Positions 105 to 47,910 of a stretch of 64,000 nucleotides of DNA are shown here, piece after piece; the first letter of the stretch is position 1; the number at the start of each line of letters is the position of its first letter. The stretch is from positions 56,296,001-56,360,000 of the forward strand of contig NC_043010.1 of the NCBI RefSeq assembly GCF_006345805.1, given 5' to 3'. The translations under genes were made by a program, and so were the position numbers. This stretch comes from Octopus sinensis (taxonomy: Eukaryota). The notes beneath the pieces were generated by a model. It saw only the letters and a program-made list of their open reading frames with translations. It had not been told where the DNA came from and did no database searches.

Positions 105-131
<27 letters not shown>

Positions 132-135
<4 letters not shown>

Positions 136-426
136 ATCAAAATAAAAACATGATGCGAAGGATTCAGCGGTACATATGTTTCGGGCCTTTATTAGACAGA
201 TTTATAACAATGCATAATGTATGTCTGTGGCCTTCTTCAGCCGCGGCTGAAGAAGGCCACAGACATACATTATGCATTGTTATAAATCTGTCTAATAAAG
301 GCCCGAAACATATGTACCGCTGAATCCTTCGCATCATGTTTTTATTTTGATCAATTTACTCCACCACCTACACCACCAAACGGTATACACAGGTGCTTAT
401 AATTATCAAGTACTCACCCCGAATTT

Positions 427-39254: not shown

Positions 39255-42200
39255 AAACCTACATAAACTGGAGACAGAAACACCCTGAAGCAAGACCCTA
39301 CACAGACAGTAACAAATTTGCCAACGTCAGAAGAAACATTATAAAAAAAAAATACTGACTGAAGTAGAGATTGACCAAATTAGACAAGCAGTAACGGATA
39401 GAATGAACGAAGCTGCAGCTAGAGAAGATAATACAGAGGAAATAATTATAGACCAGCTCAGAGCTAATACAAACGAAGTAAGGATTGAAAGAGTTAGTAT
39501 AAGTGATAGGCAAAGTGAAATACTCACTGAACCAATCATAAACACTAAGACAGATGAACATCAAATAGATGAAGAAAGTCACACAAATATTGACCCGACA
39601 GAACTACATGAGCTAAAACGTCAAATCATGATTGAATGGCTGAAAATTAAAGAAACCAGTATGGATGAACGTGATTCACTCCCTAAAATCCGCAAATCTA
39701 ACCAAAACATGAAAATAATTGGTAAAATCCGGCTTGCACTTAAGGATATAATTTCAGCTAATGATGTTGATATCACAGATCTCAACCACCTATACTATGC
39801 ATCCGCGAAAATCTCAACGATCCTATGTGGTGAAAAGATTAGAAAACGGCAACATTTCCACAAAAAGCCTTCTTGGCAAGAGCGTTTGCAACAACAAATT
39901 AAACTATTTAGATCTGACATTGAATATTTGAAAAACCTTAAGGTTCATAAGACTACCAAACCTGCAAAACCCCAAAAACTAATGAAAAAATATAATATGA
40001 AAACTATACTTGATATTGATGCCACCATAGAAACCATCAAGCAAAAGGTATCTGCTAAAGCTACCCGCATAGCGAGGTATGAAAAGCGTATTAGATTCTT
40101 CAGGGACAACATGTTCAAAAATAACCCCAAACATTTTTACAGGAAGATAGGAAAAACAACAGTTACTGTAAAGTCTGTACCATCAAAAGAAGAAGTGCAG
40201 GGATTTGGGAATAAAATTTGGGCAGAAGAAAAAACACACAGCGAAAAGGCCCCCTGGATTGATAGAATATCTAAAGAACTGGACTCCTTAGAAGAGCAAA
40301 AGTGGGAGGGTGTCAAGGTAGAAGATATAAGATCTGCTCTCAGGAGGTCAAGCAATGGAAGTCTCCAGGAAAGGATAAAATCCCTAACTTTTGGTTGAAT
40401 GCCTTCCCAGAGAGCCATGAACTGCTAACAGAACTTTACAATGATGTTTTGCAACACCCTAGTAGGATGCCTCCTTGGCTAGTTAATGGGTTAACATTCC
40501 TGCTTCCAAAAAGTGAAGAAACAAATGAACCCAAAAACTATAGACCCATAACCTGCTTAACAACTATGTATAAAACACTAACATCTGTCCTGACGGATAT
40601 ACCTATAGTTTTTTGACAGACAGCAGCATATTCCCTAATGAACAGAAAGGATGTAAACGTGGATCCTACGGCTGTAAAGATCAACTACTCATCATAAGAT
40701 GATCTTAGAAGATTGTCACAAACGACACAAAAACTTATCAATAGCCTGGATAGACTATAAAAAGGCTTTTGATAGCCTACCACATAGCTGGATTAATAAA
40801 TGCCTAGAAATGTATAAGATAGCACCTGCTCTGCGAAACTTTTTGTCTGTAAGTATGAGATCATGGAGAACCACACTAACTTTGAACAGTGACAATGAAT
40901 CTCTAAATGCTGGTGATGTAAAAAATTCATGTAGCATTTTCCAGGGTGACTCACTATCACCGCTCCTCTTCTGTTTAGCCTTAATACCTCTCTCAAAACT
41001 GCTCAATGACGCGCAGTACGGATATAAAATGTTTGATAAAAATATAAATCATCTCATTTACATGGATGATTTTTAAAGCTCTTTGCAAAAAATGACCAAC
41101 AACTCAAGGCTTACTAGCGATTGTCAAACAATTCAGTGATGACATCAGAATGCAATTTGGCCTCGATAAGTGCGCAAAAGCTACCTTTATCAAAGGAAAA
41201 ATGACAGAAACATCTAACGTTAACCTTACCAGCAGAATGTCATAAAAGAATTAGACCCAGCAGAGAACTACAAGTATCTAGGGGTAATTGAAGGAGAGGA
41301 ATAAGGCATTCAGAGATGAAGGAAAGGATTAGGAGAGAATGCTATCGCAGAGTAGAGCAATACTCAAGACAGAGCTGAATGCGAGAAACAGGATCGAAGC
41401 GATCAATGCATTAGCCATACCAGTCGTGACTTACAGTTTCAATATCGTTAACTGGTCAATTACTGAAATATGTAATCTTGACAGAAAAAATACGAAAACT
41501 GTTGACAATGCATAGAATGCACCACCCTAAGGCAGATACAGAACGACTTTATCTGCCAAGAAAAGAGGGAGGCCGTGGACTTTTACAACTGGCAATAACA
41601 ATGAAGATTGCTACAATTGGCCTAGACACCTACCTGAAAAACTCTGAGGACTGGATGTTAAAACTTGTCTCAAAACATGAAAACAAGAAAGCATCATACT
41701 CAGTAACAAAACAGGCAAAGGAATATCTAAGTGAATTCCGAAGATGACAAATTTCGGAATTAGAGATAGACACACAAGAAACAGGCACAGAAAAAGCTAA
41801 GCGCATGAAAACTCGTGCTAAATCTGCGGCCTTAGATATTCTGAATGATAAATGGCAAGAAAAACCTCTCTATGGCAAATACCCAAAGAGAGCAAATAAT
41901 GCAGATGTTGACAAAGCCCTGATCCATCAATGGCTAATGGCATCTGGCTTAAAATCTGAAACAGAGGGGTTTATCATAGCAGCTCAAGATCAATGCCTAC
42001 CAACAAGAAACTACCAGGCCAACATATTAAAGATCAGAAGCAGTCCAACGTGTCGTGTATGCAAGCAACAAAATGAAACCATTGACCATGTTGTCTCCAA
42101 GTGCAGTCTTCTAGCGCCTACAGAGTATCTCAACAGGCACGATAGAGCTGCACAATATATTCACTGGGTAATCTGTAAAAACCTGGATTTGCCCCATGAA

Positions 42201-42826
42201 AAAAACTGGTGGGAACACAAACCACCCCCAGTGCTTGAAAATGACCACATCTCACTCCTCTGGAACTTCACCATTCAAACTGACAGAAAGATAGATGCAA
42301 ATAGGCCAGACATCATATTGAAAGACTTCAAACAAAGAACATGCCTCCTCATTGATATGACTGTCCCAATCGATATAAACGTATCTGTCAAGACCTACCA
42401 AAAACTGAGCAAATATAAAGATCTTGAAATAGAAATCAGCAAAATGTGGAACCTGAAGACTAAAATAATACCTGTTGTCATAGGTGCCCTGGGAATGATA
42501 GCAAAAGGGGCTGATAGCTACCTAACTCAGATACCAGGAAACCCAAAAATGGCAGAAATTCAAAAGATAGTGCTCATGGGAACTGCTCATATCCTACGCA
42601 AAATACTTTCTATGTAATCTCAAGGTTTAAAACAAACATAATTTTCGGTTTAAAAAAAAAAAAAAAAACTTTTTTTAGACATTCATTAGTACAACACCCC
42701 CACCCCCCCAAATATATGGCACACTAGGCATAACAACAACATGAACTTCCAACCCTGTTGTCTCTTGAGGTCTCTGGGTGAGACTTGGAGCCAACTTGTA
42801 CAAATATAAAGCAAAAGTCAAACATA

Positions 42827-43056: not shown

Positions 43057-43351
43057 ATAGTATTTTATAAGCTTAAAGCTTATGAGCGATCGCCACGCAG
43101 CGACTAAAGAAAACAGTCTAATAATGAGGCATATAAACCTACGCAAATCCACAGCCCTTTTTTTTTCGCGATAAGAATACTAGTGTAATGGTAGCATTCT
43201 TCTCGCGAAAACAAGGAGGTGCGTGTTCGAGTCCCACGCCTACGGGAAAATCTACTTTTTCCGACGAGGGATTATATGCCCCATTATTAGACAATTTTCT
43301 TTAGTCCCTGCGCGGTGATCGCTTATAAGCTTTAAGCTTATAAAATACTAT
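43057..43351. mobile_element. TIR element (~84-bp arms) enclosing a tRNA-like Pol III A/B-box cassette
   Basis: TAGTATTTTATAAGCTTAAAGCTTAT... / ...ATAAGCTTTAAGCTTATAAAATACTA; internal TAGTGTAATGGTAGC and GTTCGAGTCCC. Confidence 0.75.
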
Positions 43352-43457: not shown

Positions 43458-44458
43458 TATTTATTTATATATATATCATTTTCATCCAAAATGGAGACGA
43501 ACACCATTACTCCATGTGATTGGCTTGAAAATTTGTAAAAATATTCAGATATTTTTCTTAACATGAAACCAATGACAGACTTCATACACAAATAAAGAAA
43601 TTTTATCCACCAATGCGGTGTTGAGCACTCATACTCGTTGTTTGACATTCACGTGTGTGTGTGTGTGTGTGTCCATGACTAACTTCCACACAGTTTCCGT
43701 CCACTAAATTCCTCCAAAAAGATTTTGGTCGTATAAAAGACTGACCTCAGACACTGGTCGATCTGAGACTGTGTTTGAAGATACTGATTGAAGGTGTCGC
43801 AAAGCGGAATTGGACTTCAAAACCACTTGGTTAGAAAACAAACTCTTGAAGCAAGCGGTCATGTCTAAGAGAAAAGCAAATGTTTATAATGCATATTAAA
43901 AAGAACAGTCACTGGCTGTCAGTTAACTCCAGTGTTAATATACTGGTTTCAAATTTTGGCAGAAGGTCAGCAATTTTAGAAGAGAGGTCAATCGATTACA
44001 TGGACCTCGGTGTTAGAAAGGTACACCCGAAAGGAGATCAAAGGAAAAGTCGATGTCGGCGGAATTCGAACCCCGAACGTAAAGGCGGACAAAATGTTGG
44101 CAAGTGATTTTTGCCCGACGAGGAAGCGAATCTGCCAGCTCGTCGCTTTGCTCAGTTTTAATATATTAATGTTTATATACACTAAATACAGTTACTGGCT
44201 GTTAGTTAATCTCAGTGTTGTTTGTGTTAGCTTTGACTAGTTTCACTGACTCAGACTAATCGAAGGTTAGTTCAAAGATCAAATTAATGACAAGGTAAAT
44301 GATCGATATCTCTCGAACATTCTGCAGTGATTAGTTTGCTTCTAGCCATGAACAGCAACAGACTGTGTCTAGCAATTCAATCGACTGGGTATGCTCAACT
44401 AGTCAACATCTACATACAGTGTGTGTGTTGTGTGTGTGTGTGTGTCTATATATAATAT

Positions 44459-44492
<34 letters not shown>

Positions 44493-44521
44493 ATATATTA
44501 TATTATATATACGCATATATA

Positions 44522-44555
<34 letters not shown>

Positions 44556-44564
44556 TACATATAT

Positions 44565-45230
44565 AGATAAGAAAGTTTGTTTGGTAAAGCACGTGGGTGA
44601 TATATAAGAAAATAGTAAAGTGTGAAAAAACGACAGAAGGCTTAAATGTTAAAAAATATATATATTTGTGTCAAAATGTCTGGAGAATATTGGAAAAATT
44701 TTTTTCCTTTCCTTATAAATGACATAATTTTAAAATTTTTAAGAAATTACCGGTTTCGCGTGTAGCTTTTCAAATTTCTTGTGACGTTATTTTATATTGC
44801 ATGAATTATCGTTGTTTTTATTTCCAGGAGATTTCTAAATAAGGGGAGGTAGTGAGTGATTTTTTCCGGTGTAGGGGAGATAATCGCTAAAAAATTTTTT
44901 TCCATTTCCTTGTTAATTTCTCTGTGTCAGTATGTTCGGATGGTTGAGTCTGGGTTTGTACTTTTCAATGAAGAATGTTTCCTTGTTCAGTCTCATTTGT
45001 GTTGATGATCCGAGCACATTGGTAAAATGGAAGATTAAAAATTGTGGCAGTAGTTGCTTTGCATTTCTCAATGTGCTCACTAAAAGGTATCATTCTATAT
45101 TCTGGGAATGCAATCTGTTGTCGATGCAGTGTGCATCTGCGCCTGAGTGATAGTCCCGTGGAACCCACGTAGTCTGGTGGCAGCCCGAGCATTTAATAAC
45201 ATAAATTATGTTTTCAGAGGCACAAGTAAG
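44565..45230 (-). mobile_element. 3' part of a Penelope-like retroelement: GIY-YIG endonuclease remnant plus 3' non-coding region
   Basis: [16 protein letters not shown] / [17 protein letters not shown] / KETFFIEKYKPRLN. Confidence 0.85.
44741..44780 (-). ncRNA. Minimal type-I hammerhead with U3-A8 core covariation
   Basis: AAGAAAT-TTGAAAA-GCTACACGC-GAAAC-CG-GTA-ATTTCTT: perfect 7-bp stem I and palindromic ACCGGT. Confidence 0.7.
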
Positions 45231-45284
45231 TTACATATATATATATATAATATATACATATATATATATATACATACATACATG

Positions 45285-45333
<49 letters not shown>

Positions 45334-45356
45334 CATACATACATGTATATATATAC

Positions 45357-45397
<41 letters not shown>

Positions 45398-45465
45398 CAT
45401 ACATGTATATATATACATTTATATATATATATATATATACATACATACATACATGTATTATATAC

Positions 45466-45514
<49 letters not shown>

Positions 45515-45523
<9 letters not shown>

Positions 45524-47544: not shown

Positions 47545-47910
47545 CAATAAATTAATAGTAATGGTAAGACAACAAAAGAATGAGACCTCGATATTATACA
47601 AATAGAGGAATTTATTTGTAATATGTGACAATTATTCGGTTGGCATGATAAAACTCCGAGTTTCGGATGTCGGGGCAGAAACCTGCACCGGCATCGCTTC
47701 AGTTATCGAGGCAATTCTTCGATAACTGAAGAGATGCCGGTGCCTGTTTCCGCCCCGACATTCGAAACTCGGAGTTTTATCATGGCAACCAAATATTATA
47801 TTACAAATATATATATTAATAGTAATGGTAAGACAATAAATGAATGAATGCGACCTCGACATTATGTAAATAGAGGAATTTATCTGTAATATATGTGACA
47901 ATTGTATTAC
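47545..47910. mobile_element. Palindromic hammerhead-bearing Penelope-like unit with a duplicated tail
   Basis: IR ~47635-47709 / 47719-47795; the tail at 47551-47632 is repeated directly at 47817-47905. Confidence 0.7.
47721..47781 (+). ncRNA. Type-I hammerhead motif (inverted copy on the minus strand at 47647-47707)
   Basis: GATAA-CTGAAGA-GATGCCGG..CCGACATTC-GAAAC-TCGGA-GTT-TTATC; perfect stem I GATAA/TTATC. Confidence 0.72.

What the first reader, a model, noticed from the sequence alone, without database searches (positions are those of the whole stretch)
44565..45230. Penelope GIY-YIG remnant directly linked to a U3-A8 covariant minimal hammerhead
The ribozyme lies ~150 bp downstream of the endonuclease C-terminus on the same strand, which anchors the PLE-ribozyme link in this window. 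The core reads UUGAAAA instead of CUGANGA. Both partners of the known 3-8 tertiary base pair have changed together (C-G to U-A), which is the expected signature of selection for catalysis.
Basis: partly seen in the sequence, partly recalled or inferred. Interest (0 to 1): 0.72.

Follow-up and report, generated by a model that had tools for sequence, protein, structure and literature searches.

The report
Known hammerhead variant in Penelope-like remnant
This is the broken tail of a common animal jumping gene (a Penelope-like retrotransposon, likely of the Neptune group) carrying a small, likely self-cutting RNA whose swapped core base pair is shared by its whole family and has been published before for other Penelope-like elements, so it is real but largely ordinary.

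Summary
On the minus strand, 45233-44566 is the 5'-truncated 3' end of a Penelope-like element between (TA)n tracts. It carries a frameshifted GIY-YIG endonuclease tail (82% identical to the family protein P0001) and, 140 nt after the stop, a 40-nt type I hammerhead: 7-bp helix I, core UUGAAAA (U3-A8), 2-bp helix II, palindromic helix III, A17. No such palindromic motif arose in 100 simulated windows. In contigs of three DNA runs from three organisms no other letter reaches 5% in the motif, so U3-A8 is the family state, not decay at this locus. Relatives carry a hammerhead at the same place: C3-G8 in two, U3-A8 in one that is not the sister of this family (p-AU 0.013). The pair therefore covaries in this clade. 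The linker points to Neptune. None of the headline is new: Cervera and De la Pena 2014 report U3-A8 hammerheads (about 1,300, one with this core) in Cercyon elements, and Perreault 2011 reports natural U3-A8 and 2-bp helix II. What remains is a 2-bp helix II plus U3 with A17, which could pair and slow cleavage. Cleavage is untested; this solo copy is probably a relic.

The parts
44566..45233 (-). 5'-truncated copy of a Penelope-like element (Neptune-type architecture): endonuclease tail plus 3' pseudo-LTR
   Evidence: the family sequence goes on beyond 45229 in contigs of runs X3 and X4 (table 7), where the window has microsatellite; ends read by eye, within a few nt
44913..45230 (-). GIY-YIG endonuclease C-terminal remnant, residues 220-326 of P0001, broken by four 1-2 nt deletions near 45174, 45060, 45028 and 45012; the Y, CxxC, YxG, R, H, H, E and N codons are all still readable across two frames
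   Evidence: (table 4)
44566..44912 (-). 3' untranslated region / pseudo-LTR
   Evidence: position between stop codon and (TA)n tract; covered throughout by family contigs in 4 of 4 runs; pLTR status inferred from PMC4209133
44741..44780 (-). type I hammerhead motif, 40 nt
44767..44773 (-). core positions 3-9, UUGAAAA (U3-A8 variant)
   Evidence: no other letter at 5% or more in 4 of 4 runs
44758..44766 (-). helix II, 2 bp with a 5-nt loop
   Evidence: +0.9 kcal/mol alone, mean pair probability 0.82 in the dimer
44749..44754 (-). palindromic helix III (ACCGGU), predicted dimer interface
   Evidence: self-duplex -8.3 kcal/mol, pair probability 0.97 in the 40-nt dimer
44748..44748 (-). A17, predicted cleavage 3' of this base; can pair with U3
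44447..44565 (.). (TA)n-rich microsatellite at the element's 3' side
45234..45519 (.). (TA)n-rich microsatellite at the 5' truncation point

Best explanation
This is the truncated 3' end of a high-copy Penelope-like retrotransposon, likely of the Neptune clade, whose pseudo-LTR carries a family-wide U3-A8 hammerhead motif that is predicted to cleave slowly and only as a dimer. Shown: the endonuclease remnant, the motif, its fixation in the family, the same motif position in relatives, and C3-G8/U3-A8 covariation among them. Inferred: in full-length tandem copies two motifs pair through the ACCGGU palindrome into a double hammerhead and cut after A17; U3-A8 replaces C3-G8 as the tertiary pair, reached through two transitions via a U-G wobble; the short helix II and a competing U3-A17 pair make the rate low, perhaps dependent on the element's own protein as shown for the PAc element. 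This copy lacks the 5' pLTR, the RT and a second motif, so it is probably a dead insertion in a (TA)n target.
For: Protein: P0001 82% identity, E=2.8e-20; P0003 has RT, a CX4CxxC linker and C-terminal GIY-YIG. Motif beyond chance. Family state: none of the 32 positions with a substitution at 5% or more lies in 44741-44862; summed depth in the 3' region peaks in the bin 44754-44776 in runs X1 (597,187) and is near the peak in X3 (543,950); a 2,983-nt contig in X4 that has letters filling the four frame breaks shows no other letter in the motif. Relatives: hammerhead after the endonuclease in 4 of 7 loci, all with a palindromic or near-palindromic helix III: L001 and L004 C3-G8, L007 U3-A8, L005 decayed. 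L007 groups with L004 (96/98), not with P0001; holding the two U3-A8 groups together is rejected at p-AU 0.013. Dimer fold: double hammerhead -14.1 against -8.0 kcal/mol for two monomers; the dimer MFE (-15.5) has the same helices. Literature: U3-A8 natural and stated to be active in vitro (PMC3088659); PLE hammerheads cut weakly, as dimers (PMC4209133) or with protein help (PMC11167929).
Against: No cleavage data. The 40-nt motif alone is not significantly more conserved than the rest of the element (P=0.14); the 122-nt stretch is (P=0.0015) but was chosen after the fact. Helix II is unstable alone (+0.9 kcal/mol) and loop II has no 4-nt complement on the element strand, so no pseudoknot support. 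U3-A17 pairs with probability 0.71 in the dimer model. In longer window context the dimer fold fades (helix III probability 0.67, 0.32, 0.02 for 81, 116, 201 nt), though this copy has private changes in the flanks. The isolated L007 motif is predicted to misfold (helix I 0.03). Only four core states are known for the clade. 4 of 16 indel rows were not shown, so a minor helix II length variant cannot be excluded. The X4 contig runs 126 nt past the predicted cut site, so if it is RNA, uncut molecules exist. The clade call is by motif comparison, not by a tree with named references.
Confidence: 0.62

Rival explanations
1. The motif is a family-fixed hammerhead fossil: kept as a sequence or structure signal for the element's protein (binding, priming, pLTR formation), or simply inherited from the founder copy, but no longer cleaving.
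For: 2-bp helix II without a pseudoknot partner and U3-A17 pairing; C3-G17 pairing is the presumed cause of strong impairment in minimal hammerheads (PMC3884650); in PAc, cleavage is not needed for insertion in vitro and no RNA-seq reads ended at the cut site (PMC11167929); Naiads spread without canonical hammerheads (PMC8557442).
Against: All three helices and every core base except the compensated 3-8 pair are intact; a second lineage (L007) carries the same compensated core; loose ends show sister families that match up to the motif and differ beside it (table 7).
Confidence: 0.27
2. U3 with A17 and a 2-bp helix II are a selected brake: the ribozyme sits in a trapped state until the element's protein, or a second copy, frees U3 for A8, which times cleavage to RNP assembly.
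For: Both U3-A8 carriers in the clade have A17, and they are not sisters; U3-A17 is predicted at 0.71; protein-assisted cleavage is shown for PAc.
Against: Two cases only; A17 is already present in the C3-G8 sister L004, so it may just be inherited; one sister family in run X3 appears to have C17 (7 contigs, loose end; its core was not visible); nearest-neighbour energies leave out the core's tertiary contacts.
Confidence: 0.09
3. Chance motif, or independent decay of a C3-G8 core at this locus.
For: Both changes are transitions, and this copy is decayed elsewhere (four frame breaks).
Against: 0 of 100 simulations; no C3 or G8 at 5% or more in 3 of 3 DNA runs; same position in relatives.
Confidence: 0.02

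Closest known systems
Minimal hammerheads of metazoan PLE pseudo-LTRs, U3-A8 variant of Schistosoma mansoni Cercyon elements (Cervera and De la Pena 2014, PMC4209133; main text parts 1-2 of 4 and supplement PDF parts 1-2 of 3 read)
   Same: Type I motif 3' of the PLE ORF; U3-A8 in place of C3-G8 (about 1,300 hits; 2 of 56 rows in Fig. S3, one with the core UUGAAAA); G10.1-C11.1; palindromic helix III; mostly solo copies in truncated elements.
   Different: Helix II is 2 bp (shortest among the 56 rows is 3 bp); no extra base between 9 and 10.1; helix I is 7 bp; helix III has a 2-nt palindromic insert; none of the 56 rows combines U3 with A17; host element is Neptune-type, not Cercyon.
Neptune clade of EN+ Penelope-like elements (Craig et al. 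2021, PMC8557442; passages and supplement Fig. S2 rows read)
   Same: RT followed by a C-terminal GIY-YIG; DKG motif; CX2-5CxxC linker with Neptune-length spacing; CCHH motif; microsatellite target; hammerhead present.
   Different: No named Neptune family was matched; the window holds only the last 107 codons.
Natural hammerhead core variants (Perreault et al. 2011, PMC3088659; passages read)
   Same: U3-A8 covariation in nature; helix II often only 2 bp; weak palindromic helix III for dimers.
   Different: Many of those have a pseudoknot between loop II and helix I; none was found here.
PAc (Poseidon, Anolis) protein-assisted hammerhead (PMC11167929; passages read)
   Different: C3-G8 core, Poseidon clade.

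Membership tests
EN+ Penelope-like element | GIY-YIG endonuclease with the CCHH motif | tested here: met
   C236/C233, H255, H272 with Y229, Y240, G242, R251, E305, N317 conserved in alignments and readable in the window; Pfam GIY-YIG at its cut-off for P0002 (22.6 bits), below it for P0001 and P0003; the window pieces alone hit nothing
EN+ Penelope-like element | Telomerase-like RT in the same ORF | tested here: met
   In the relative P0003 (65% to the query piece): RVT_1 E=1.1e-7 upstream of the EN; lost from the window copy
EN+ Penelope-like element | Pseudo-LTR repeated at both ends in tandem copies | not testable with these tools
   Single truncated copy; no host assembly held
Neptune clade | C-terminal EN with a CX2-5CxxC linker of full length | tested here: met
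   P0001 and P0003 have C-X4-CxxC about 23 residues before the TC motif, like the Neptune rows and unlike the short Nematis or linker-less Penelope/Poseidon rows of Fig. S2; comparison by eye
Neptune clade | RT phylogeny inside Neptune | not tested
Naiad clade | N-terminal EN, DKA motif, no canonical hammerhead | tested here: not met
   EN is C-terminal and the motif is DKG in P0003
Type I hammerhead ribozyme | Core 3-UGA-N-8-A, GAAA, A15.1-U16.1, NUH site, with a 3-8 pair | tested here: met
   U3-A8, GUA site
Type I hammerhead ribozyme | Three helices | tested here: met
   7 bp, 2 bp, and 6 bp in the dimer; pair probabilities 0.88, 0.82, 0.97 for the 40-nt dimer; weaker in longer context
Type I hammerhead ribozyme | Loop II to helix I tertiary contact | tested here: inconclusive
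   No 4-nt Watson-Crick partner for loop II on the element strand; non-canonical contacts cannot be tested
Type I hammerhead ribozyme | Self-cleavage | not testable with these tools
   Needs an assay

The most novel reading that the evidence does not exclude
A natural self-braked hammerhead: U3-A8 has arisen at least twice in this Neptune-type clade on an A17 background, so U3 can be held by A17 instead of A8; with a 2-bp helix II this makes a ribozyme that stays off until dimerisation or the element's own protein switches it on. It would be a natural switch built from core bases alone, and a direct handle on what hammerheads do for Penelope-like elements.
Probability: 0.15. Interest if true: 0.5.

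Novelty: new member of a known kind. Interest (0 to 1): 0.24.

Why it matters
Little as it stands: hammerheads after the endonuclease of Penelope-like elements, and the U3-A8 variant, are in print. It adds a Neptune-type family with a very short helix II and shows the 3-8 pair switching more than once in one clade. The role of these ribozymes in transposition is still open, and the U3/A17 combination gives a cheap test of whether slow cleavage is built in.

Tried and rejected
Rfam at gathering and E-value thresholds: no hammerhead hit for the window or for relatives, uninformative. Pfam on the three window pieces: nothing. No host genome is held, so copy number and tandem structure could not be counted; summed contig depth is not a copy number. 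No RNA holder listed on record; run X4 is RNA by guess only, so nothing is claimed on expression. Relatives in viral contigs and prokaryote genomes: none. The viral pattern search gave 83 chance matches, used as a control. Automatic alignment of five motifs did not place the cores in register, so no covariance model was built; states were read by descriptor and by eye. The 116-nt monomer fold is weaker than shuffles (z=+1.36), as expected for a motif that needs a partner. L002 and L003 have only 20 and 57 nt after the match; L006 has 754 nt and no motif found. A second copy or second U3-A8 motif in the window: none. Lunse et al. 2016/17 and a DOI recalled for Przybilski and Hammann 2007 are not held; either may already cover the short-helix or U3/A17 cases. 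Searches for print: 'hammerhead'+'U3-A8' 1 paper, +'U3A8' 0, +'C3U'+'G8A' 1, not relevant, 'hammerhead ribozyme'+'octopus' 4 listings, none on this, 'octopus'+'Penelope'+'Neptune' 1. The word octopus was my guess from the look of the sequence; no call identifies the host. Earlier scan notes: nothing.

Full report
What is there. The window is microsatellite-rich eukaryotic DNA; no call names the host and no assembly is held. On the minus strand, between two (TA)n tracts, 45233-44566 holds the end of a protein-coding frame and a short untranslated tail. The coding part is split over two frames. A 55-residue open piece finds P0001 at 82% identity (E=2.8e-20), P0002 and P0003, and 82 representatives at E up to 0.001. 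tblastn puts residues 220-326 of P0001 on 45230-44916. P0003 has RT (RVT_1, E=1.1e-7) followed by a C-X4-CxxC linker and a GIY-YIG domain with the CCHH motif. Against the rows of Fig. S2 of PMC8557442 this is the Neptune layout; the comparison is by eye. The paper links this linker to microsatellite targeting, and (TA)n runs also follow the motif in L001, L004 and L007. The copy is 5'-truncated in the endonuclease: family contigs go on past 45229 where the window turns to microsatellite.

The motif. 140 nt after the stop codon lies a 40-nt type I hammerhead: 7-bp helix I, core UUGAAAA, G10.1-C11.1 opening a 2-bp helix II with a 5-nt loop, GAAA, the palindrome ACCGGU, and A17. In 100 order-2 Markov simulations of the window none had a core with palindromic helix III and a helix I of 5 bp or more; 0 of 83 viral loci picked by the bare core pattern passed the helix test. 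Rfam misses it and misses the canonical relatives too.

Family state or local decay. 20 listed runs from 10 studies and five coded organisms hold part of the stretch. I laid 4 of them (three DNA or unknown, one RNA by guess) at 80% likeness, listing differences from 5%: 1,762, 1,326, 863 and 3 contigs. 32 positions differ at 5% or more; none lies in 44741-44862, and none of the 12 indel rows shown (of 16) lies in the motif. A 2,983-nt contig in X4 has letters filling all four frame breaks and no other letter in the motif; 4 of its 13 gap letters are not located in the output. So U3-A8 and the short helix II are the family state. The motif alone is not significantly more constant than the rest (P=0.14); the 122-nt stretch is (P=0.0015, chosen after the fact). 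Loose ends suggest sister families that match up to the motif and differ beside it: 6 contigs in X1 diverge just upstream of helix I, and 7 in X3 appear to have C17 and a helix I one pair shorter; their cores are not visible.

Covariation across the clade. A metagenome scan gave 7 related loci out of 530 candidate stretches, 39-47% identical to P0001. Four have a hammerhead after the endonuclease: L001 (C3-G8, U17, 244 nt after the stop) and L007 (U3-A8, same core heptamer, A17, 4-bp helix II, 111 nt) by descriptor; L004 (C3-G8, A17, 90 nt) and L005 (decayed, C3 with U8) by eye, then checked. L002 and L003 are too short and L006 shows none. In trees of 26 and 13 proteins L007 groups with L004 (98/97 and 96/98) and not with P0001; forcing the two U3-A8 groups together is rejected (p-AU 0.013 and 0.017; the members of the group were picked after the first tree, and a pLTR could move by recombination). 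The 3-8 pair has thus changed at least twice in this clade while staying a pair. That supports purifying selection on the pair. It does not show that this family still cleaves.

How it likely works. The palindromic helix III cannot close in a monomer; two copies give a double hammerhead at -14.1 kcal/mol against -8.0 for two monomers, with pair probabilities 0.88, 0.82 and 0.97 for helices I, II and III. This matches the dimer model for PLE hammerheads, which cut weakly in vitro (PMC4209133; review PMC6765202, passages) and in one case only with the element's protein (PMC11167929). Against fast cleavage: helix II is +0.9 kcal/mol alone, loop II has no pseudoknot partner, the fold fades in longer context (0.67, 0.32, 0.02), and U3 pairs with A17 at 0.71 in the model, extending helix I over the cut site. 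The same kind of trap, C3-G17, is the presumed cause of poor cleavage in minimal hammerheads, although tertiary-stabilised G17 ribozymes stay active (PMC3884650, introduction and passages). Carrying this over to U3-A17 is my inference. This locus has one motif only and no 5' pLTR, so it is probably inert here.

What is known. Cervera and De la Pena describe U3-A8 in Cercyon PLE hammerheads, about 1,300 hits; 2 of the 56 rows of their Fig. S3 are U3-A8, one with this core, and one row is the U3-G8 intermediate. Perreault et al. report natural U3-A8, state it is active in vitro, and find helix II often of 2 bp. Not seen among those 56 rows: a 2-bp helix II, or U3 with A17; their descriptor may exclude short helices, and the larger Lunse et al. 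set could not be read. The bioRxiv preprint 10.64898/2026.07.22.740005 (first part of five read) adds only background.

Verdict. Real, correctly spotted, a new member of a known kind. Interest 0.24. The boldest reading left open is a built-in U3-A17 brake (probability 0.15, interest 0.5 if true).

Noticed in passing
window 129-358: Perfect 115-nt inverted repeat with no spacer (99% complementary) whose arms each hold a C3-G8 hammerhead-like motif (core at 247 on +, long helix II, palindromic helix III), between (TA)n tracts. Looks like the inverted pLTR ends of another Penelope-like family; no Neptune-type ORF nearby.
   Followed up: partly
window 47633-47795: 77-nt inverted repeat (91%, 9-nt spacer) with a C3-G8 hammerhead-like motif at 47726 on + (5-bp helix I) and a decayed mirror copy, flanked by an imperfect direct repeat at 47547-47627 and 47811-47895. 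Likely another ORF-less pLTR pair.
   Followed up: partly
window 41748-42617 (+): 289-codon open frame with zf-RVT (E=7.9e-6) and a weak nuclease-like hit (L_protein_N, E=0.005): likely the C-terminus of a non-LTR retrotransposon with a restriction-like endonuclease (family call from recall).
   Followed up: partly
L007:709-750: Second U3-A8/A17 hammerhead in a distant Neptune-type element; the isolated motif is predicted to misfold into a hairpin between core and loop II; helix I may extend past an A-A mismatch.
   Followed up: partly
L004:3127-3167: C3-G8 hammerhead whose helix II appears to open with a U-U pair at 10.1-11.1, a variant that Perreault et al. mention.
   Followed up: no
window 44749 and 44779 (loose ends): Sister families share the motif but differ beside it; one appears to have C17 with a 6-bp helix I.
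   Followed up: no
window 43180-43250 (+) and 44060-44085: tRNA-like A/B-box looking stretches, probably SINE heads (by eye; ARAGORN finds no tRNA).
   Followed up: no
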